In this document: in pieces, positions 17,678 to 60,000 of the stretch
Numbering within the stretch: the first letter of the stretch is position 1
Layout: every line of letters begins with the position of its first letter
Virus record (IMG/VR): IMGVR_UViG_3300007513_000010
DNA: 64,000 nucleotides
Source: a virus
Direction: 5' to 3' (one strand)
Program-made: the position numbers and the translations under genes
The notes under the pieces: model-generated
The model's database searches: none
Told to the model about the DNA's origin: nothing
The model's input: only the letters and a program-made list of their open reading frames with translations

Positions 17678-17902
17678 ATGGCAAAGCCAGTTCATGTTGA
17701 AGTATATATAAGAGACCAAGAGCAGTTTGCGAGAATGTTGAAGAAGTTTACGAGAAAGGTTAAGAAATCTGGCATTCTGGATGAAGTAAGAGAAAGAAGA
17801 CACTACACCAAAAAGTCAGAAAAGAGAAGATTGAAGAGGGCAAACAAAAAAAGACGCTCTCAAGAGTCAACAAATAAGCACAAAGAAAAGTTTAAAGACT
17901 AG
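17678..17902 (+). CDS. rpsU: Phage-encoded ribosomal protein bS21
   Basis: VxIRDQE-F-RMLKKFTRKVKKSGILDEVRERRHYTKKSEKRR matches the bS21 pattern (ALRRFKR..G...E.R.RE.YEKPS..R). Confidence 0.85.
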   Translation: MAKPVHVEVYIRDQEQFARMLKKFTRKVKKSGILDEVRERRHYTKKSEKRRLKRANKKRRSQESTNKHKEKFKD

Positions 17903-49796: not shown

Positions 49797-51194
49797 ATGG
49801 AAGCAGAAACTAACTTTTCAAGATTTGGAAAGTCTTTCCAAGAAGACTTGTGCCACCTTATTCTTAATGATCGCCCCTTCGCAGATCAGATGTTCGAAGT
49901 TTTAGATCTTAATTTTCTAGAATTAAAGCATCTTAGGGTATTTATAGGCAAAATAAAGCAATATAGAGCGAAATACGAAGTACACCCTACTTCAAAAATC
50001 ATGGCAACAATAATTAGATCAGGTCTTGAAGATCAGCCAGATTCTGTAAAGATTAGAATTAGAGAGTATTATGCAAAAGTACTATCCTCGGGAATTCTGC
50101 CAGATTCGGCAGATTACACCAAGGATATCGCTTTAGATTTTTGCAGGAAACAAAAACTAAAAGAGGCTCTCATGAGGTCGGTCGATTTAATAAAATCGTC
50201 TTCCTTTGATGAGGTGTCAAAAGTGATAGACAACGCCTTAAAGCTTGGATCGGACAATGACCTGGGATATGATTATTTAACAGACTTCGAAGCCCGATTT
50301 GCGTTGAAGTCTAGAGACCCAATAACAACGGGTTGGCAGCATATAGATGAGGTAGCGAAGGGCGGCCTTGGCAAGGGCGAGCTAGGGGTGGTTGTGGCAC
50401 CTACTGGTGCAGGCAAATCGATGGTCCTGGTCCATCTAGGCGCCCATGCTTTAAAAGCCGGGAAGAACGTTCTACACTACACTCTTGAGCTGGCAGACAC
50501 CGTTGTGGCCAGCAGATATGATTCAGCTATAACTGGGGTTAATCTCAATAATCTGACGGTCTTTAAAGAGAAGATATATGAAGAAATAAAAGATATAGAA
50601 GGACAGTTAATAGTCAAAGAATATCCAACGAGATCAGCGTCAATTCAGACTATTAAGAATCATTTAGATAAGTTACGTCGAAGAGGCTTTAATCCAGATT
50701 TGATAATTGTGGATTATGGCGATTTGATAAAACCAGAATTTTCAAAAAAAGACGAAAAAAGGCACCAACTCGAGACTATTTACGAAGAGTTGAGGGGCCT
50801 AGCACAGCAGCACGAGTGTCCAATTTGGACCGCTTCACAAACAAACCGCTCAGGATTAAATGCAGAGGTGATCACCATGGAGTCCATTTCGGAAGCTTTC
50901 AACAAATGTTTTGTTGCGGATTTTATCTTTACTGTTTCAAGGACCATAGAAGACAAAAATACAAATACGGGAAGATTCTTTATAGCCAAAAATCGTAACG
51001 GCCCCGATGGGCTAATCTATCCTATTTTTATGGACACTGCAAATGTGAGCATAAAGGTCCTAAACCAAACGAACGAGAGTATTAATGAGATTATAGATAA
51101 GTCTTCAAAGGAGAGACTAGAGAATTTAAAGCAAAAATACGCAGAATTTAAAAGCAAAAACAAGGAGGGTGAGTTTAGTGGAGTTATCAAATAA
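49797..51194 (+). CDS. Replicative DNA helicase (DnaB/T4 gp41-like)
   Basis: APTGAGKS Walker A, TLEL, IIVDYGD, WTASQTNR and KNRNG. Confidence 0.92.
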   Translation: MEAETNFSRFGKSFQEDLCHLILNDRPFADQMFEVLDLNFLELKHLRVFIGKIKQYRAKYEVHPTSKIMATIIRSGLEDQPDSVKIRIREYYAKVLSSGILPDSADYTKDIALDFCRKQKLKEALMRSVDLIKSSSFDEVSKVIDNALKLGSDNDLGYDYLTDFEARFALKSRDPITTGWQHIDEVAKGGLGKGELGVVVAPTGAGKSMVLVHLGAHALKAGKNVLHYTLELADTVVASRYDSAITGVNLNNLTVFKEKIYEEIKDIEGQLIVKEYPTRSASIQTIKNHLDKLRRRGFNPDLIIVDYGDLIKPEFSKKDEKRHQLETIYEELRGLAQQHECPIWTASQTNRSGLNAEVITMESISEAFNKCFVADFIFTVSRTIEDKNTNTGRFFIAKNRNGPDGLIYPIFMDTANVSIKVLNQTNESINEIIDKSSKERLENLKQKYAEFKSKNKEGEFSGVIK

Positions 51195-53043: not shown

Positions 53044-53072
53044 TTGATTTAAATGTAAAAAATTGGTATAAT
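53044..53072 (+). promoter_or_regulatory. Sigma70-like promoter
   Basis: TTGATT-N17-(TGg)TATAAT upstream of the GroES-like gene. Confidence 0.7.
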
Positions 53073-53115: not shown

Positions 53116-53445
53116 ATGTCTAGAATTCTTGAGAGAATGAGGCCGGTTAACCGCCACCTTTTAATTATTCCGCACACAAAAAAGAAAGAACAAACACGTG
53201 GGGGGGTTCTGCTTCCGGATGGGTTTGATGACACTCCCGGGCGTTACTCTGTGGTAACTGTTGTGGATGCCGCCTCAGATTGTTCAAAAGATTTTAAAAG
53301 ATTTTCGCTAGAAAGGTACACTGAGACTATAGATAGAAAGGCCGTGGTGGAAACTTCAATGATAGAGGAGATTGAAGTTAATGATAAAAAGCATCACTTA
53401 ATACTAGAAAATTATGTAGTGGGGATCATAGAGTCGCCATCATGA
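53116..53445 (+). CDS. GroES-like co-chaperonin
   Basis: MRPVNRHLLI...EQTRGGVLLPD mobile loop and C-terminal LILENYVVGII. Confidence 0.75.
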   Translation: MSRILERMRPVNRHLLIIPHTKKKEQTRGGVLLPDGFDDTPGRYSVVTVVDAASDCSKDFKRFSLERYTETIDRKAVVETSMIEEIEVNDKKHHLILENYVVGIIESPS

Positions 53446-55475
53446 TGTGGAAGTCTACGTTTGTTATTTTACTTGTTTGCTTGTTTTCTTGTCAAGAAAA
53501 TGTGAGATCTGAATACTCCTCAGATTCAGCTTTAGACTCTGCAGTTCGCATTGCTGTTCCTGACGCCCGCCCTGATCGCCCACCTGTTCCTGATATTAGA
53601 ATTATTTATCCTCGGTATGATTTAGGTCCGGATGCCATTGTCGACGCAGCCCCTCCGCCCCCTGTGTGTGAAAGACTGGGTCTCAGAGAGCCGTGTGAAA
53701 TAGAGGGTCTGCATGGGCCTTGTGCTACCGGAACAAAGGTCTGCAATATAACTCACTGGTCGGCCTGTACCCCGATAAGTTTTCCAAGAATAGAGATTTG
53801 TGACGGCTTGGACAATGACTGCGACGGCCGCCTGAACGAGGCACCCAACAGTTTGCATGAAGAACAAGAAGACCCTCAAAATCTTTTGTTATCTCGCGCT
53901 TGCTACACTGGTTCCCCCGGTACACAAAAAAACGGCCCATGCCACCCGGGTGTATCCGTTTGCAGAGAGCGCACGCGTAATACTGATGCTGGTGTGGAAA
54001 ACTATTATGATTATGGAGAGTGTGAACAACAGACTGTGCCCTCAGAAGAGGAATGCGATACCATTGACAATGACTGCGATGGCAACACGGACGAGGGCGT
54101 GTTAAATATCTGTAATCAGTGCGGACCGGACCCTATTGAAGTGTGTGACGGCTTAGATAACGATTGTGACGACGACACTGACGAGGGGGTTCTGAATGAT
54201 TGCGGCGAGTGCGGCGAATTACCCCGAGAGTTGTGCGACTTTGTTGATAATGACTGCGATGGAAGTATAGACGAAGACTTTGCAGACGAAGTCTGTGCAT
54301 GCGACCACCCCGATTATGTACCTCAGCCAGAAACTTGCAACGGTGCTGATGATGATTGCGACGGTTTTGTTGATGAAGGTCCCGCTGGCGGACCTTTGTC
54401 AATGCTTTGTTCGACGGATTTGATTACGAACGAGGTCATAACGTACGAAAGAAGAGAAGATGGTCCCGAATATGTTGCAGGAGATTGTCGCTTAGGGGCG
54501 GCTTTCTGTGAATCAGTTCGCAACGCACAAGGAGAATTAGAACATGGATACTTTGATTGTCAGCAGGAGATCCGCCCAGGAATCGAAAGGTGCAATGATG
54601 CAGACGATGATTGCGATGGCTTGGCAGATGAGGACTTTGAACAAGGATCGGTTGCTGTTATGATGGTGGTCGACGTTTCAGGTTCCATGGATGAGGGAGA
54701 ATTAACCGCTGCGTTTACAGCGACAAGAGATTCAGTTCGCCGATTGTTTAATGATGGCATAGTAGATGTTTGTTATATGTTGGCTATAGTGGGGAATGAT
54801 GATATGCCAGACCCTTATTTATTTTACCCTGCAGACACGTGTGTTCCTGGGGTTGAAGATCCACCGGTTGTCCCAATTGAAGACATGGCAAACGCGGTCA
54901 ATACTTTGCGCCTCAACTTGCGAGCTGGCAATATTAATCAAGGTGGTGGCACAGAAAATACTTTAGATGCTATGGGGCGCTTTTTTACAGATGACAGGAT
55001 AGACTGGGACCGGGATGGAGCTAACGATAACATTCTTTGGAGTACAAGCCGCCCCGCTGCACGTATTCAAGGAGTTGAAGATGCTTGGGATGTAGATCTT
55101 AGTCAATATACCCACAGGATTGTAATTGTGATAGGTGACGAGCCGGCCCAAGGTGCAGAATGGAACAACCATGCAGTTGCTACGGCCATGGCGCACGCAA
55201 ACGGCATGGCTTTCATTATTGGGAACAGGCAAAACGCTCACAGTTATCAGCCATTAATAGATTTTGGAGCAGTTCACAGCCCTGGCTTGCAGGGATTCGG
55301 AAATCAAAATCAACAACAGATTATTGACACTGTGGTAGAGGCCATTGAAGAGGCAGCATGTATCAATAACAGGGAAGAAGAGGAAGAAGAAGGGGCAGCT
55401 CTTACGAAAAGCACCAGATACTATTACGCTTCTGCATTAACGAGAATGAATTACAGGCTAAGGATGTGTTTGTAG
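53442..55475 (+). CDS. Lipoprotein with six ExC(D/N)xxD(N/D)DCD Cys-rich repeats and a VWA domain
   Basis: Lipobox-like LFSC after a hydrophobic N-terminus; PDA/DA linker; repeats such as EICDGLDNDCDG; MIDAS DVSGS, GGTE and IGDE. Confidence 0.8.
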   Translation: MMWKSTFVILLVCLFSCQENVRSEYSSDSALDSAVRIAVPDARPDRPPVPDIRIIYPRYDLGPDAIVDAAPPPPVCERLGLREPCEIEGLHGPCATGTKVCNITHWSACTPISFPRIEICDGLDNDCDGRLNEAPNSLHEEQEDPQNLLLSRACYTGSPGTQKNGPCHPGVSVCRERTRNTDAGVENYYDYGECEQQTVPSEEECDTIDNDCDGNTDEGVLNICNQCGPDPIEVCDGLDNDCDDDTDEGVLNDCGECGELPRELCDFVDNDCDGSIDEDFADEVCACDHPDYVPQPETCNGADDDCDGFVDEGPAGGPLSMLCSTDLITNEVITYERREDGPEYVAGDCRLGAAFCESVRNAQGELEHGYFDCQQEIRPGIERCNDADDDCDGLADEDFEQGSVAVMMVVDVSGSMDEGELTAAFTATRDSVRRLFNDGIVDVCYMLAIVGNDDMPDPYLFYPADTCVPGVEDPPVVPIEDMANAVNTLRLNLRAGNINQGGGTENTLDAMGRFFTDDRIDWDRDGANDNILWSTSRPAARIQGVEDAWDVDLSQYTHRIVIVIGDEPAQGAEWNNHAVATAMAHANGMAFIIGNRQNAHSYQPLIDFGAVHSPGLQGFGNQNQQQIIDTVVEAIEEAACINNREEEEEEGAALTKSTRYYYASALTRMNYRLRMCL

Positions 55476-56212
55476 ACGGGTTGGTAATAGGAGGAAGCTT
55501 GCAGGCTTATTTGTATGCGATTTCCAAGGGCCTGTACATAATAGACAACACAAACAGTGCACCAAAGGCGCTTCCTCATGATCAGGTTTTTCAAAGTCGC
55601 CTACTGCCACAGCTGGAATTTTTCCAGTCAATGTTGGGCAAGTCGTTGCTCGCCGGGAGGCCTGACTCTTTAAAAGTTTACGCAGATCGTTGCAAAATAG
55701 TAAAAGGAAGAAGTACCAAAGAGGTAGCCTTTAGTCAGTGCTACATCTTCGACACGACAGCAGTTAAGTGTTACGACAATGACCTTGCCCCTCAAAACGG
55801 AAAAGTCAAAGTTACCGATTATTTTAAATTTAAAAATATGAAAAAAAATATTAATTTTAATACGTTAAGTACCTTAGATTCTTTTGTTTCAGAAGTGCAG
55901 TTTGTAAAATCTTCTAGCTCTAGTGTGGATTCGCCACATATCGGAGGTTGTCTAGCAATATCGCACCTTATGGAGAGTGATCTAGAAAAGTTTGACTTTT
56001 CAGATACCATGGTCAGATTTAAGTTGCTGGACCTGTTAAGAAAGAAGGGGTTCAAAGGAAAGAGGTCAGGCGTGTATAAGGATGGTTCAACTAAGTACGC
56101 CAGCATGAAGCTTTTTCATATAGATCGTTCAGTGGAACAGTACTCTTGTTTATATAAGGATAGTGATACTGTTAAGTTTCTTGGTTTATCGACTGAGAAA
56201 GCTTTAGATTGA
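55466..56212 (+). CDS. Hypothetical protein with degenerate Rossmann-like N-terminus
   Basis: DGLVIGGSLQAYLYA resembles the first beta-alpha unit of an FAD-binding fold but lacks the full GxGxxG. Confidence 0.5.
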   Translation: MFVDGLVIGGSLQAYLYAISKGLYIIDNTNSAPKALPHDQVFQSRLLPQLEFFQSMLGKSLLAGRPDSLKVYADRCKIVKGRSTKEVAFSQCYIFDTTAVKCYDNDLAPQNGKVKVTDYFKFKNMKKNINFNTLSTLDSFVSEVQFVKSSSSSVDSPHIGGCLAISHLMESDLEKFDFSDTMVRFKLLDLLRKKGFKGKRSGVYKDGSTKYASMKLFHIDRSVEQYSCLYKDSDTVKFLGLSTEKALD

Positions 56213-57069
56213 AAACTCCTAGAGAAAAGAAAAAGACAAACACCGTAGGTGTTATACCTGTTTCGGGCTGGTCGGATCGCTTAGGGTTTATCTGGCCTGA
56301 TTGTTGCTCTCCTGTTGGTTTGTCTTATATGGCTATAGAGAGGAGCATCTTGGAGTGTGCGTATGCTGGATGTAGTTCGATATGGGTTGTTTGCAACGAC
56401 GCGTCGGCCCCTTTGATAAAAGAGAAGATAGGTGATTATATTATCGCCCCTCATTGTTATGAGTCAAGACCGTACGTTAAATACTTTAAAGAACACATAA
56501 AGCATGTTCCTGTTTTTTATGTTCCGGTTCACCCTAAGGATCGTGACCGTAGAGATAGTTTAGGTTGGTCTGTTCTACACGGGTGCTTGAGTGCCTTCCT
56601 GGTTTCATCTCAAATAAGCTCTTGGATTGCACCAAGAAAATATTATGTTAGTTTTCCTTATGGCTTGTATGACCCTCTTATAGTGAGGGACCACGTTAAA
56701 GAAATAAACTCTGAAAAGAACTTTTTCTTATCTTTTGGCGATCTCACGGTCCGGGATAATTTATATCTTGGGTTTACGATTTCTCCAGATGAGTGGAAAC
56801 AATTGCGTTATGATCTAAAAATTTCTTGCACTGGTGGAGATAAAAGCATCCCGTATTATAAAAGATGGTCATCACGATATTTTACCCTTGACAAAATATT
56901 TAAAAATGATAATATAGTAGTAGACAAGAAAAGAGAAATTAAAAAATATCACGACTTATCTAGCTGGGACTCGTTAGAAAAGTTTTATAAATCTTCCCTA
57001 TCGCTCGAAAAGCCGGCCGATAGAATAATTGGTCCGTTTTATTATAAAGGAATATACGAAATTGAATAA
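56209..57069 (+). CDS. Divergent sugar-nucleotidyltransferase-fold protein
   Basis: VGVIPVSG..DRLG...P...PVG....IERSILECAYAGCSSIWVV follows the NTP_transferase N-terminal layout. Confidence 0.5.
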   Translation: MKTPREKKKTNTVGVIPVSGWSDRLGFIWPDCCSPVGLSYMAIERSILECAYAGCSSIWVVCNDASAPLIKEKIGDYIIAPHCYESRPYVKYFKEHIKHVPVFYVPVHPKDRDRRDSLGWSVLHGCLSAFLVSSQISSWIAPRKYYVSFPYGLYDPLIVRDHVKEINSEKNFFLSFGDLTVRDNLYLGFTISPDEWKQLRYDLKISCTGGDKSIPYYKRWSSRYFTLDKIFKNDNIVVDKKREIKKYHDLSSWDSLEKFYKSSLSLEKPADRIIGPFYYKGIYEIE

Positions 57070-60000
57070 CAGACAATCGCCTAGCATACCTTTCGTTGGT
57101 CTGCACGCCCACTCAGTAGCGGGCTCTCCGTTTGATGCTCTTGGTTATCCACAAGAACATATGGAATATGCTTATGAGAACGGTATGGATGCCCTAGCGC
57201 TCACCGACCACGGCAACGCTAATGGGTTGGCATACCAAGTCTTGCATGCCAAAGAGATGAAGAAGCAAGGGAAAGATTTTAAGCCAATTTTTGGAGTGGA
57301 GGCTTATTTTATACCATCTGTCTCTAATTGGAAAAAAGATTATGAGAGAATTAAATCAGAAGCCAAGAGAAAATCAGAATATGAGGTAGACTCATCCGGG
57401 ACTACGGTTGAAGACGAAGAATCAAAGAAAAAGATGAAGTCCACCCTCAACAAGAGAAGGCATTTAATCCTGCTGGCCCAGAATCAAACAGGCTTGCAAA
57501 ATATATTTAAAATGATCTCACATTCATACATCGGAGACAGTTTTTATCGCTACCCTCGCGTAGATTATGCACTGCTAAAGAAGCATAACGAAGGCGTAAT
57601 AGCTGCTTCGGCTTGTTTGGGGGGTGTCTATGCAGGTGATTATTGGGAGAACAGAGATTTTGGAGCCGATGCAGTCCTCACTGCAATGAGGTCGACCACC
57701 CAAAAAATGGTAGATATTTTCGGTCCAAGATGGTATGGGGAATTACAGTGGAACAATATTCCAGAACAACATGAACTTAATCAGTATATTATTCAGATGC
57801 ACTATGAACACGGTATAGATCTCATATCTACAGCCGACAGCCATTACTATTCACCCAATGCCTGGAAAGACAGAGAACTCTATAAAAGACTCGGCTGGCT
57901 CGGCCGCGGCCGCCCAGACTACTTATCAGAAGAGTTGCCCACTTCTGTGGAAGAGATCGGCTACGAACTATACCCCAAAAATGGAGATCAGATGTGGGAA
58001 TCATATCTTGAGTATTCTAAGTTGGCAGGTATCAAATATGATGACGACTTGGTGATGAATTCTATCACCAAGACACACAAGATTGCACACTCGATGATAG
58101 AGGACTTTATCCCAGACAATACAGTGCGATTACCAGACTTTGTAGTCCCGGAGGGCTCCACCCCTGCTCAGGCTCTTGCTGCATTGTGTGTTGAGGGCTC
58201 TCGCACTCTGGGTTTTTCTGGTAATCAATTTTATACTGATCGATTAAAGACAGAACTTGAGGTTATAGAGTCTAGAGGTTTTTCAAAATACTTTTTAACT
58301 ATGAAGGCCATTTCCTCCCGAGCAGAACAAAGCCAACTAGTTGGTCCTGGCCGCGGCTCAGCCGCAGGTTCGCTGGTTTCATACGCCCTGGGAATAACCC
58401 AGGTGGACCCGATAAAATACGGCCTTCAGTTTGAAAGGTTTCTAACAAAGGGAGGCTCAGGATATCCTGATATAGATTATGATGTTTCAGACCCAATGTC
58501 GTTAAAGGAAAGTTTGATAGAAGAGTGGGGGGACGACACTGTGGTTCCGATCACCAATTGGAACACACTTCAGTTGAGGTCCTTGATCAAAGATATATCT
58601 AAATTTTATGGTATCGAGTTCACCGAGGTCAACAATGTGACGAGCAAAATGGTTTATGAGGCTACGCCGCTGGCTAAAAAGGAGCATGGCATAACTGCGG
58701 GAGTCTATGTTCCGACGTTTGAAGAATTGATGAAATATTCTTCCACCTTGCAGGAATTCTTAAACAAGTACCCACAAGTCAAGACGCACGTTAGCGCGCT
58801 TTATGGTCAAACCCGATCCGCATCCCGTCATGCTGGCGGCGTAGTGGTCGGCGAAAATCTCAATACGTGGATGCCGCTCATAAATAGCGGCGGCGTCCGC
58901 CAAACTCCGTGGTCGGAAGGGCAACATGTAAGGCACCTCGAACCTATGGGTTTTATTAAGTTTGATATCTTAGGTCTTGCGTCGCTTAGAATGATGGAGG
59001 GTGCTATAGAAAGGATCCTGCAGCGACACCAAAACATAGAGAGTCCCACCTTCGATGATATAAAGGGTTTTTATGATTCGAATCTTCATCCGGATAGCAT
59101 AGATTTATCAGACGAAGGCGTGTGGAGGAACATCTTTCACAAAGGAAAATGGGCAGGAATATTTCAGTTTACTGAATCTGGAGCGCAGTCTTTCTGCAAA
59201 AACGCAAAACCAAACAACATAACAGATTTAGCAGCAATAACAAGTATTTACCGCCCGGGCCCATTGTCTGCGGGGGTTGATAGGATGTATGTGGGGGCGA
59301 AGCACGCACCAGAAGAGGTGGAATACATTAATGATACTTTTAAAAAAGTCACAGAGGAAACTTATGGTTTTTTGATTTTTCAGGAGCAAATTGCCATGTT
59401 GGCGCACAAGCTTGGAAAAAACCTTTCTCTTGACGAGGGAAATAAACTTAGGAAGCTTTTAACAAAGAAGGGGGCCGGCGAAGTTCAAGAACAGAAAGAT
59501 AAAATTTGGCTTAAGTTTCGAGAAGGTTGTGTAGAAAAGGGTATGCCAAAGTGGCAAGCTAAGGAAATATGGGACAAGTTTGAATATTTTTCAGGATATG
59601 GTTTTAACAAATCACATGCAGTATCATATTGTATTTTATCTTTTCAGTGTGCTTGGCTGCTGAATTATTACCCTGTTGAGTGGCTTGCTGCATATTTGGA
59701 TAAAGAGCCAGAAAAGAAAAAAGAGCGTGCTATTGCAACTGCAAAATCGTATGGGTTTAATATAGAGCCGCTAAATATAAACACTTCGGGGTCACAGTGG
59801 GACATCGCAGAAGACGACAAAACACTTATACAGCCCCTTTCATCTATTAAGGGATTGGGGTCTGCAGCAATTGAACAAATTATAAACAATAGACCCTTCA
59901 ACACTATTGAAGAGTTTTTGTTTCATGATGACATTAAATATTCGAAGCTAAATAAGAAAGCTTTGGACGCTTTGGTCAGAAGCCAGACACTAAATATACT

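What the first reader, a model, noticed from the sequence alone, without database searches (positions are those of the whole stretch)
53442..55475. Phage-encoded Myxococcota-style surface lipoprotein (Cys repeats + VWA/MIDAS)
It has a lipobox, an Asp/Pro/Ala linker, six ExC(D/N)xxD(N/D)DCD repeats and an intact-looking MIDAS VWA domain. This repeat and linker style is characteristic of myxobacterial and related deltaproteobacterial surface proteins, so it hints at the host. It is ATGA-coupled to GroES behind a sigma70 promoter, so probably early. Inference: the phage remodels the infected cell surface, for superinfection exclusion or for adhesion and cell-contact behaviour that could help spread in a social or predatory host.
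Basis: partly seen in the sequence, partly recalled or inferred. Interest (0 to 1): 0.7.

Follow-up and report, generated by a model that had tools for sequence, protein, structure and literature searches.

The report
Integrin-like lipoprotein of marine phages
An uncultured marine T4-like phage, and hundreds of its relatives, encode a large lipid-anchored protein with a calcium-binding, disulfide-rich stalk and an integrin-type binding head. It is probably placed in the infected cell's envelope, but its target, its purpose and the phage's host are still unknown.

Summary
ORF 53442-55475 (+) encodes 677 aa:
- a conserved lipobox (LFSC, Cys17);
- a disordered Asp/Pro/Ala tether;
- six ExC(D/N)xxD(N/D)DCD repeats (Pfam PF11617, E 6.7e-21);
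- a C-terminal domain that folds as a VWA domain (Z 15-16 to integrin beta-I and TFIIH p44 VWA) with invariant DxSGS, E505 and D566.

The gene overlaps GroES by ATGA, follows a sigma70-like promoter, and lies in the DNA-replication block.

The architecture is a phage family. All 75 fetched IMG/VR loci carry it, out of 382 confirmed matches. The nearest ESM Atlas clusters are 100% viral. Its VWA subtype has only 253 hits among 1.84 billion proteins and no full-length match in 201 Myxococcota genomes.

Cellular similarity, mostly to Myxococcota, covers only the repeats (27-43% identity, genomes of 56-75% GC against 42% for the phage). The closest known analogue is the Myxococcus gliding adhesin CglD, by architecture and not by orthology.

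The host inference is unresolved. Capsid relatives infect Flavobacterium, Microcystis and Rhodothermus, and a bS21 comparison was indecisive.

The function is inferred: an envelope-anchored ligand binder made before lysis, most likely masking a receptor or surface structure. An adhesin role is the main rival.

First readers of this scan noted the same kind of gene in six other phage genomes. None of those notes has been followed up.

The parts
53044..53072 (+). sigma70-like promoter (TTGATT, 17 nt, TG-TATAAT) ahead of GroES
   Evidence: Consensus scan, 10 of 12 matches plus an extended -10; sequence read. A consensus match only.
53116..53445 (+). GroES/gp31-like co-chaperonin gene with a strong Shine-Dalgarno (SD) site (AAAGGAG); its stop overlaps the lipoprotein start
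   Evidence: Pfam Cpn10 E 8.6e-4; phrog_3188 co-chaperonin GroES E 4.9e-5; sequence.
53442..53445 (+). ATGA start/stop overlap (translational coupling; no SD of its own)
   Evidence: Read from the sequence. No GGAG/GAGG in -20..-4. Not conserved in relatives.
53442..55475 (+). Whole lipoprotein gene (677 aa plus stop)
53442..53492 (+). Signal peptide with lipobox L-F-S-C; Cys17 is the predicted lipidated first residue of the mature protein
   Evidence: Cys17 is invariant in 59 sequences, and the residue before it is A/G/S in all 26 rows. Helix 3-14 in the model.
53493..53666 (+). Disordered Asp/Pro/Ala-rich tether (aa 18-75)
   Evidence: Composition; pLDDT below 50 for aa 18-69; variable in length among homologues.
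53667..54641 (+). Cys-rich stalk (aa 76-400; 31 Cys, 83 Asp+Glu) with six MopE-type repeats and small beta-hairpins
   Evidence: PF11617 E 6.7e-21; nearly all Cys invariant; pLDDT 77-96.
53799..53840 (+). MopE-type repeat 1 (aa 120-133, CDGLDNDCDG...)
   Evidence: Regular expression.
54054..54095 (+). MopE-type repeat 2 (aa 205-218)
54144..54185 (+). MopE-type repeat 3 (aa 235-248)
54234..54275 (+). MopE-type repeat 4 (aa 265-278)
54336..54377 (+). MopE-type repeat 5 (aa 299-312)
54591..54632 (+). MopE-type repeat 6 (aa 384-397)
54642..55376 (+). VWA (integrin I-like) domain, aa 401-645
   Evidence: AlphaFold pLDDT 87; Foldseek probability 1.0; Z 15-16; profile against integrin alpha-X E 4.3e-5.
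54672..54686 (+). MIDAS motif D411-V-S413-G-S415
   Evidence: Invariant across both paralogue types; aligned to DGSGS of the integrin alpha-X I domain.
54951..54962 (+). T504-E505-N-T507 loop; E505 is invariant and is the candidate second MIDAS ligand (an acidic residue here would resemble integrin beta-I)
   Evidence: The spatial role is inferred; model coordinates could not be inspected.
54990..55028 (+). DxDxDG-like acidic loop inserted in the VWA domain (aa 517-529, DDRIDWDRDGAND); candidate extra Ca2+ site of the 'V' type
   Evidence: D517, D518, D521 and D525 invariant; absent from the 'W' type. Ca2+ binding is inferred.
55137..55142 (+). D566-E567 at the end of strand beta4 (third MIDAS element)
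   Evidence: Invariant; aligned to the MIDAS Asp region of integrin alpha-X.
55377..55472 (+). Poly-Glu stretch and C-terminal tail ending R-M-C-L (hydrophobic-Cys-hydrophobic at the C-terminus)
   Evidence: By my count of the tails, the motif is kept in 30 of 33 syntenic loci. Low pLDDT. Function unknown.

Best explanation
The gene encodes an exported protein made by the phage during infection and anchored in the host envelope by an N-terminal lipid.

Anatomy, shown by sequence, conservation and modelling:
- an SPII-type signal peptide with an invariant lipobox Cys;
- a disordered tether of about 55 residues;
- a rigid stalk of six MopE-type Cys/Asp repeats, presumably locked by disulfides and loaded with Ca2+;
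- an integrin beta-I-like VWA head with a complete MIDAS (D411-x-S413-x-S415, E505/T507, D566).

Inferred mechanism:
- The gene is transcribed with the replication genes from a host-type promoter and translated by coupling to GroES.
- The precursor goes through Sec and the lipoprotein pathway into an oxidising compartment. That means a diderm host with a periplasm, or a surface-exposed location.
- The MIDAS metal then captures an acidic side chain of a conserved ligand in or on the host envelope.

Most likely purpose: occupying or masking a surface or envelope structure, such as the phage's own receptor. That would exclude superinfecting phages and keep progeny from being wasted on infected cells and debris. 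This is the logic of T5 Llp and of Cor, but with an unrelated and far larger protein.
For: - Lipobox conservation.
- Disordered tether and confident Cys-rich and VWA modules.
- PF11617 repeats.
- VWA fold and MIDAS register, with MIDAS residues invariant across two paralogue types only 20-22% identical in this domain.
- 37 Cys imply an oxidising compartment.
- Position in the replication block, conserved as DnaB-RNR-GroES-(thyX)-lipoprotein-orf248-orf286-PolIII alpha in about 35 loci.
- A sigma70-like promoter, with no late-type ACTANTTA motif immediately upstream of the operon (nearest copies lie inside dnaB at 50775 and dnaE at 57918).
- All 75 fetched loci of a virus-only family keep the architecture, so it is under selection in phages.
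- The loops around the MIDAS are strongly conserved within a type, which fits a conserved ligand.
- Precedent: T5 Llp is an early-made lipoprotein that blocks the receptor FhuA (PMC9586334).
Against: - No experiment exists, the host is unknown and no ligand is known.
- Known exclusion lipoproteins (Llp, Cor) are 10-fold smaller and unrelated.
- An integrin-like head on a long stalk looks at least as much like an outward-facing adhesin (CglB/CglD) as like a receptor plug.
- Lipidation, localisation (inner or outer membrane, periplasmic or surface face) and metal binding are all inferred.
- Expression timing rests on consensus motifs only.
- In a second phage lineage the gene sits beside large unannotated proteins that could be structural.
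Confidence: 0.4

Rival explanations
1. It is a virocell adhesin. The protein is displayed on the outside of the infected cell and makes it stick, in a Ca2+/Mg2+-dependent way, to neighbouring cells, particles or prey. This would work as CglB and CglD do for Myxococcus, and would bring new hosts close to the burst.
For: The architecture parallels CglD: a surface outer-membrane lipoprotein, Cys-rich (4.1%), with Ca2+-binding repeats and a beta-integrin-like VWA with MIDAS (bioRxiv 10.1101/2023.10.19.562135). The nearest non-viral Atlas clusters are Myxococcota TSP3+VWA+MopE proteins (score 0.81-0.84, a lead only). A long tether and stalk suit reaching outward. VWA heads of pilus adhesins are among the fold matches.
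Against: No orthology to any Myxococcota VWA was found. Surface exposure needs a host-specific lipoprotein export route that cannot be inferred. The benefit to a lytic T4-like phage is speculative. Nothing distinguishes this from the masking model in silico.
Confidence: 0.25
2. It is a periplasmic envelope modulator. Anchored to the inner or outer membrane and facing the periplasm, it binds a host envelope machine or peptidoglycan-associated protein to stabilise or rewire the envelope during infection. Examples would be control of lysis timing, blocking an envelope-based defence, or standing in for the missing lipoprotein partner of the spanin-like genes.
For: Lipoproteins face the periplasm by default in most diderms. 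In one relative a lytic-transglycosylase-like gene lies directly upstream; I recognised its motif by eye in the ORF list.
Against: It lies 43 kb from the lysis-like genes. At 677 aa and with this fold it is unlike any spanin. The transglycosylase adjacency was seen in the ORF list of one relative (L051) and was not looked for in the others.
Confidence: 0.15
3. It is a virion or virion-assembly component, for example a decoration or fibre-associated protein, and the lipobox is incidental.
For: VWA domains occur in some phage structural proteins (BFVD hit 'virion structural protein' of PaMx28 at E 3.8e-3). In the second lineage the gene follows a 1662-aa unannotated protein.
Against: An invariant lipobox Cys in 59 sequences is hard to explain for a cytoplasmically assembled virion part. 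Disulfide-rich repeats need export. The gene lies in the replication block, away from the ACTANTTA-marked virion genes.
Confidence: 0.07
4. It is a metal (Cu/Ca) scavenging or buffering protein, as the Pfam name 'Cu-binding_MopE' suggests.
For: PF11617 match; 83 acidic residues in the stalk.
Against: PF11617 is described only as a 'putative metal-binding motif'. The family profile does not hit the solved MopE structure at E below 1. The conserved MIDAS VWA head points to protein-ligand binding.
Confidence: 0.05

Closest known systems
CglD (and CglB) of Myxococcus xanthus: cell-surface outer-membrane lipoprotein adhesins of the gliding focal-adhesion machinery (bioRxiv 10.1101/2023.10.19.562135; PMC9946355)
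   Same: N-terminal lipoprotein anchor. Cys-rich and disulfide-stabilised. Acidic Ca2+-binding repeats ahead of a beta-integrin-like VWA domain with DxSxS...T...D MIDAS. The order of domains is the same.
   Different: CglD is 1130 aa, with COMP/thrombospondin-type DxDxDG repeats and EGF-like modules; the phage protein is 677 aa with PF11617 MopE-type repeats. No full-length VWA match to the phage profile was found in 201 Myxococcota genomes (best 27 bits, beta1-MIDAS segment only). It is encoded by a lytic phage, with no Glt apparatus in sight. This is an analogue or a distant relative, not an orthologue.
T5 Llp and Cor-type phage lipoproteins (superinfection exclusion by blocking the receptor FhuA; PMC9586334, PMC13673623)
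   Same: A phage-encoded lipoprotein made early and targeted to the host envelope. The best-supported functional logic is the same.
   Different: Llp and Cor are small single-domain proteins with no VWA and no repeats. There is no sequence similarity: no hit in 50,697 cultured-phage records. The target here is unknown.
Integrin beta-I and alpha-I domains and other VWA/MIDAS adhesin heads (e.g. Streptococcus sanguinis PilB minor pilin, Plasmodium TRAP, B. thetaiotaomicron BatB)
   Same: Same fold (Z 14.5-15.5, about 180 residues, rmsd 2.8-3.1 A). The MIDAS register is conserved. The invariant Glu in the second MIDAS loop resembles beta-I domains.
   Different: 9-15% identity. No hybrid or PSI domains. 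An extra DxDxDG-like loop and a C-terminal hydrophobic-Cys-hydrophobic tail.
Myxococcota/Bradymonadia 'putative metal-binding motif-containing' (MopE-related, PF11617) surface proteins
   Same: Same repeat family, 27-43% identity over aa ~80-400. Some also carry a VWA domain (P0083; Atlas clusters).
   Different: They have different partner domains, and those checked do not match the phage's VWA domain: P0075 and P0083 do not align to it. Their genomes are 56-75% GC against 42% for the phage.

Membership tests
Bacterial lipoprotein precursors (SPase II substrates) | Positively charged n-region, hydrophobic h-region, lipobox [LVI][ASTVI..][GAS]C within about 35 residues of the start | tested here: met
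   K4, hydrophobic residues 6-16, L-F-S-C17. Cys17 is invariant in 59 homologues, and the residue before it is A/G/S in all 26 rows. A strict PS51257-style regular expression fails only on Cys13 at -4.
Bacterial lipoprotein precursors (SPase II substrates) | Actual diacylglyceryl modification and LspA cleavage | not testable with these tools
   Needs expression, globomycin sensitivity and lipid labelling. SignalP was not available.
Pfam PF11617 Cu-binding_MopE (putative metal-binding motif) | HMM score above the gathering threshold (27 bits) | tested here: met
   74.7 bits, E 6.7e-21, 5 stretches; six motif copies by regular expression.
VWA domain superfamily | Rossmann-like alpha/beta VWA fold | tested here: met
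   The model (pLDDT 87) gives Foldseek probability 1.0 against integrin, collagen VI and vWF A domains, and Z 15-16 over about 180 residues.
VWA domain superfamily | Match to a Pfam VWA model above its threshold | tested here: not met
   VWA_2 scores 15.6 bits against a cut-off of 27, E 0.026, over the beta1-MIDAS segment only. A family profile does reach the integrin alpha-X I domain at E 4.3e-5. So this is a divergent subfamily.
VWA domain superfamily | Complete MIDAS (DxSxS, a Thr or acidic residue, Asp) | tested here: met
   D411, S413, S415, E505 and D566 are invariant, and T507 is nearly so. The register against integrin alpha-X is shown. Metal binding itself was not testable.
CglD/CglB gliding adhesins | Sequence orthology to the Myxococcota proteins | tested here: not met
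   The VWA profile found no full-length match in 201 Myxococcota genomes or in 4 named ones. No CglD sequence was at hand for a direct alignment.
CglD/CglB gliding adhesins | Lipoprotein + Cys-rich + Ca2+-binding repeats + MIDAS VWA architecture | tested here: met
   compared with the description in bioRxiv 10.1101/2023.10.19.562135. The repeats are MopE-type rather than TSP3/COMP-type.
CglD/CglB gliding adhesins | Functional association with the Glt gliding apparatus at the cell surface | not testable with these tools
   The host is unknown; no Glt genes are in the phage window.
Llp/Cor-type superinfection-exclusion lipoproteins | Homology to Llp or Cor; a small single-domain lipoprotein | tested here: not met
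   No tblastn hit in 50,697 cultured-phage records and no PHROG hit. The protein is 677 aa.
Llp/Cor-type superinfection-exclusion lipoproteins | Blocks the phage's own receptor | not testable with these tools
   Needs the host and the phage in culture.
Spanins (o-spanin or u-spanin) | A small lipoprotein next to or embedded in an i-spanin gene in the lysis cassette (or a C-terminal transmembrane segment for u-spanins) | tested here: not met
   677 aa, in the replication block. No C-terminal transmembrane helix in the model.

The most novel reading that the evidence does not exclude
These phages carry the first 'viral integrin' of the prokaryotic world. It would be a surface-displayed, Ca2+/Mg2+-dependent adhesin that reprogrammes how the infected cell sticks to neighbours or particles, and so shapes transmission in the ocean. 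The family would also mark a so far unrecognised group of marine, low-GC, Myxococcota-like hosts of Far-T4 phages.
Probability: 0.15. Interest if true: 0.8.

Novelty: new variant of a known kind. Interest (0 to 1): 0.55.

Why it matters
Phage-encoded envelope lipoproteins are known only as small receptor plugs. Integrin-like VWA lipoproteins are known only as bacterial adhesins. This is a large, conserved, virus-only family that joins the two ideas. It sits in a fixed slot of the replication module of abundant uncultured marine T4-like phages, and it also occurs in a second phage lineage.

If its ligand is the phage receptor, it offers a handle on receptor identity, and so on host identity, for a phage group whose hosts have been an open question since 2015 (PMC4360716). 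If it is an adhesin, it would be a new way for a virus to alter the behaviour of its host cell.

It also warns against reading MopE repeats in a phage as a host label. Six other first-reader notes in this scan make that same inference.

Tried and rejected
- I took genomic context from IMG/VR loci instead.
- **Cultured phages.** tblastn gave no hit. PHROGs and NCBIfam gave no family.
- **Cellular orthologue of the VWA domain.**
  - The word-based region search found only the same family.
  - The exhaustive profile search found 253 hits, all of the same architecture or fragments of it.
  - Two hits named 'MopE-related protein [archaeon]' sit on 32-45 kb contigs. I suspect they are phage DNA binned into a MAG, but I did not check.
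  - 201 Myxococcota genomes gave only 20-27 bit partial hits.
- **Host by bS21 (window 17678-17902).** Best identity was 47% in Myxococcota, 45% in Bacteroidota and 41% in Pseudomonadota samples, which is indecisive. The five low-GC Myxococcota genomes with the best bS21 gave no match at all to the lipoprotein.
- **Host by capsid relatives.** They infect Flavobacterium, Microcystis and Rhodothermus, which do not agree with one another.
- **'Fast-evolving slot' idea, replaced.** The 25-30% identities in some syntenic loci reflect a second paralogue type (DWSGSM, 'W') rather than rapid divergence of one gene. One locus carries both types in tandem.
- **Functional link to chaperones, rejected.** The ATGA coupling to GroES is particular to this genome, and DnaK/DnaJ flank the gene in only one locus.
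- **Recent transfer from a high-GC donor, rejected.** GC3 is 0.414 against 0.394 +/- 0.041 for the window's genes.
- **C-terminal tail as an outer-membrane beta-signal.** Only a loose alternating hydrophobic pattern is visible, and the model has low confidence there. I left this as an observation.
- **Neighbours in the second phage lineage.** No Pfam, PHROG or PDB annotation.
Full report

The ORF 53442-55475 (+) is real and encodes 677 aa.
- **Signal peptide.** The N-terminus has K4, a hydrophobic run and L-F-S-C17. In an alignment of 59 homologues Cys17 is invariant, and in the 26 rows printed the residue before it is always Ala, Gly or Ser. A strict PROSITE-style pattern fails only because of a Cys at -4.
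- **Tether.** Residues 18-75 are rich in Pro, Asp and Ala and are modelled as disordered.
- **Repeats.** Exactly six C[DN]xx[DN][DN]DC[DN] repeats lie at aa 120, 205, 235, 265, 299 and 384. Pfam PF11617 (Cu-binding_MopE, 'putative metal-binding motif') scores E 6.7e-21.
- **Coupling to GroES.** The GroES stop and the lipoprotein start overlap as ATGA.
- **Promoter.** A TTGATT-17-TG-TATAAT site and a strong SD site precede GroES.

**The C-terminal domain is a VWA domain with a complete MIDAS.**

Pfam alone is marginal (VWA_2 E 0.026). Three other results agree:
- An AlphaFold model of aa 396-677, built on 56 sequences, has pLDDT 87 and pTM 0.83.
- Foldseek matches it to integrin I domains, collagen VI and vWF A domains at probability 1.0.
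- VIA-align gives Z 15-16 over about 180 residues at rmsd 2.8-2.9 A. The matches are the TFIIH p44 VWA, integrin beta-I domains, Pactolus, the PilB minor pilin and BatB.

A family profile reaches the integrin alpha-X I domain at E 4.3e-5. In that alignment DvSGS lies on the MIDAS DGSGS, and the 'vvlgDE' strand lies on the strand that carries the MIDAS Asp.

D411, S413, S415, E505 and D566-E567 are invariant. They stay invariant between two paralogue types that are only 20-22% identical in this domain. The invariant Glu in the second loop resembles integrin beta-I more than alpha-I. The 'V' type, to which the window's protein belongs, also has a conserved DxDxDG-like acidic loop (aa 517-529).

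The full-length model (pLDDT 83.5) shows five parts in order:
- a signal helix;
- a disordered tether;
- a confident Cys-rich stalk;
- the VWA head;
- a long last helix followed by a low-confidence tail.

**It is a phage family, and it does not look like a recent host gene.**

- The window lies in a 126,975-bp IMG/VR virus record.
- The word-indexed protein search found about 55 clusters of full-length homologues. They come from Tara, JGI and ENA metagenomes, on contigs of up to 158 kb.
In all 75 loci fetched, the matching ORF has 5-8 MopE repeats and a DxSGS motif and is about 620-790 aa. My rough regular expression also found a lipobox in about half of them.
- The ESM Atlas places the protein among clusters that are 100% viral (Uroviricota), at scores of 0.95-0.97.
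- Searching with the VWA domain alone returned only this same family.
- An exhaustive HMMER search of 1.84 billion representatives gave only 253 hits. In the full-length hits the domain sits at the C-terminus of a protein of about 580-790 aa; the shorter hits are probably fragments.
- No cultured phage has the gene.
- GC3 of the gene is typical of the phage (z 0.5), so there is no sign of recent import.

**Context and timing.**

The gene order is UvsX, exonuclease, DnaB, class II RNR, GroES, lipoprotein, orf248, orf286, PolIII alpha.
- This order is conserved in about 35 related loci, often with thyX or another gene between GroES and the lipoprotein. The ATGA coupling to GroES is therefore local to this genome.
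- The major head protein lies 32 kb upstream.
- The motif ACTANTTA is enriched, with 25 copies against 8.75 expected. The copies cluster in the first 36 kb of the window, and none precedes this operon.

Early or middle expression is a reasonable inference, but it has not been measured.

**Two paralogue types share the slot.**

- 'V' has DVSGSM and 'W' has DWSGSM.
- One relative (L002) carries both types in tandem.
- Two others (L010, L021) add a shorter lipoprotein of about 420 aa.
- By my count of the tails listed, 30 of 33 syntenic loci end in hydrophobic-Cys-hydrophobic at the C-terminus, as here (R-M-C-L).
- Members in a second, unannotated phage lineage stop right after the conserved '...DE..C' end of the VWA domain.

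**The Myxococcota question.**

- Named cellular hits are nearly all Myxococcota or Bradymonadia.
- Most of the 80 best loci in 185,579 species genomes are Myxococcota or 'Deltaproteobacteria'.
- The nearest non-viral Atlas clusters are Myxococcota TSP3+VWA+MopE proteins, at scores of 0.81-0.84, which is only a lead.
- The published M. xanthus adhesin CglD has strikingly the same plan. It is a surface lipoprotein, Cys-rich, with Ca2+-binding repeats and a beta-integrin-like MIDAS VWA.

Against using this as a host label:
- The similarity covers only the repeats (aa ~80-400, 27-43% identity), in genomes of 56-75% GC against 42% for the phage.
- The VWA profile has no full-length match in 201 sampled Myxococcota genomes.
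- The nearest cultured capsid relatives infect Flavobacterium, Microcystis and Rhodothermus at 41-47% identity, which confirms the Far-T4 placement.
- The literature leaves Far-T4 hosts open, or proposes Bacteroidetes for one genome (PMC4360716, PMC7198788).

Other host evidence:
- SD use is high: 25 of 49 genes against a 9.7% background. From general knowledge of Bacteroidota translation signals, this argues against a Bacteroidota host.
- The phage bS21 is 47%, 45% and 41% identical to the best Myxococcota, Bacteroidota and Pseudomonadota copies sampled, which is indecisive.
- The low-GC Myxococcota genomes with the best bS21 gave no match at all to the lipoprotein.

The host is unresolved.

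**Mechanism.**

Shown:
- the precursor has all the sequence features of a lipoprotein;
- it has a Cys-rich acidic stalk and a MIDAS VWA head;
- these features are conserved in a virus-only family.

Inferred:
- export and lipidation;
- disulfide and Ca2+ stabilisation;
- capture of an acidic ligand residue by the MIDAS metal;
- action on the infected cell's envelope before lysis.

Ranking of readings:
- **Receptor or surface masking** (superinfection exclusion and protection of progeny, the logic of T5 Llp; PMC9586334) is my best guess, at about 0.4. The loops around the MIDAS are conserved and the gene sits with early-type genes.
- **An outward-facing adhesin** like CglB/CglD is the main rival, at about 0.25.
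- **A periplasmic envelope modulator**, about 0.15.
- **A virion part**, about 0.07.
- **A metal scavenger**, about 0.05.

**Novelty.**

No paper in the library links MopE repeats, VWA domains and phages. I class this as a new variant of known kinds (phage envelope lipoproteins; bacterial VWA lipoprotein adhesins).

First readers of this scan flagged the same kind of gene in six other phage genomes, without follow-up.

One genome in the Myxococcota sample (G200) is unpublished. It contributes only one ordinary bS21 row, and no claim here rests on it.

Noticed in passing
L002:3480-8109; L010:8234-9502; L021:8228-9511: Paralogue expansion in the same slot. L002 carries a 'W'-type (DWSGSM) and a 'V'-type (DVSGSM) lipoprotein in tandem. 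L010 and L021 add a lipoprotein of about 420 aa with three MopE repeats and no DxSGS motif.
   Followed up: partly
window 55377-55472 and the C-termini of L003-L071: A conserved C-terminal tail: a poly-acidic stretch, then an aromatic-rich segment ending hydrophobic-Cys-hydrophobic at the C-terminus (RMCL, GICL, RMCF, KICY...). I count it in 30 of 33 syntenic loci; it is absent from the second phage lineage. It may pair with the conserved Cys640 or dock onto a partner. Its function is unknown.
   Followed up: partly
window 55466-57069: orf248 has an N-terminus that looks Rossmann-like by eye, and orf286 has no family hit. They overlap each other, the lipoprotein's end and the dnaE start. They are syntenic in about 30 loci but only 21-52% identical.
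   Followed up: no
L025-L076 (e.g. L047:544-13620, L039:1438-11213): A second, unannotated phage lineage carries the same lipoprotein architecture. There it sits next to conserved large proteins (1662 aa, 1073 aa, 566 aa, 262 aa = phrog_36119) that have no Pfam, PHROG or PDB match.
   Followed up: partly
L066:1989-9991: In one 201-kb viral contig the lipoprotein lies between full-length DnaK (Hsp70, E 2.7e-246) and DnaJ genes. This occurs only in that locus.
   Followed up: yes
L051:5070-5546; L065:4976-5683: In relatives, a thyX-like gene and, in L051, a small lytic-transglycosylase-like gene lie between GroES and the lipoprotein. Both were identified by eye from motifs.
   Followed up: no
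window 17678-17902: A phage-encoded ribosomal protein bS21 (74 aa, PF01165 in its homologues). It is 60-73% identical to many marine metagenomic copies and at most 47% identical to any cellular copy sampled.
   Followed up: partly
window 952-35063: The motif ACTANTTA is enriched (25 copies against 8.75 expected; 0 of 100 shuffles reach 25). It is concentrated in the first 36 kb of the window, where the head genes lie, and is absent ahead of the GroES-lipoprotein operon.
   Followed up: partly
P0156, P0218: Two family members are annotated in NCBI as 'MopE-related protein [archaeon]', on 32-45 kb MAG contigs. I suspect these are phage contigs binned into an archaeal MAG.
   Followed up: no
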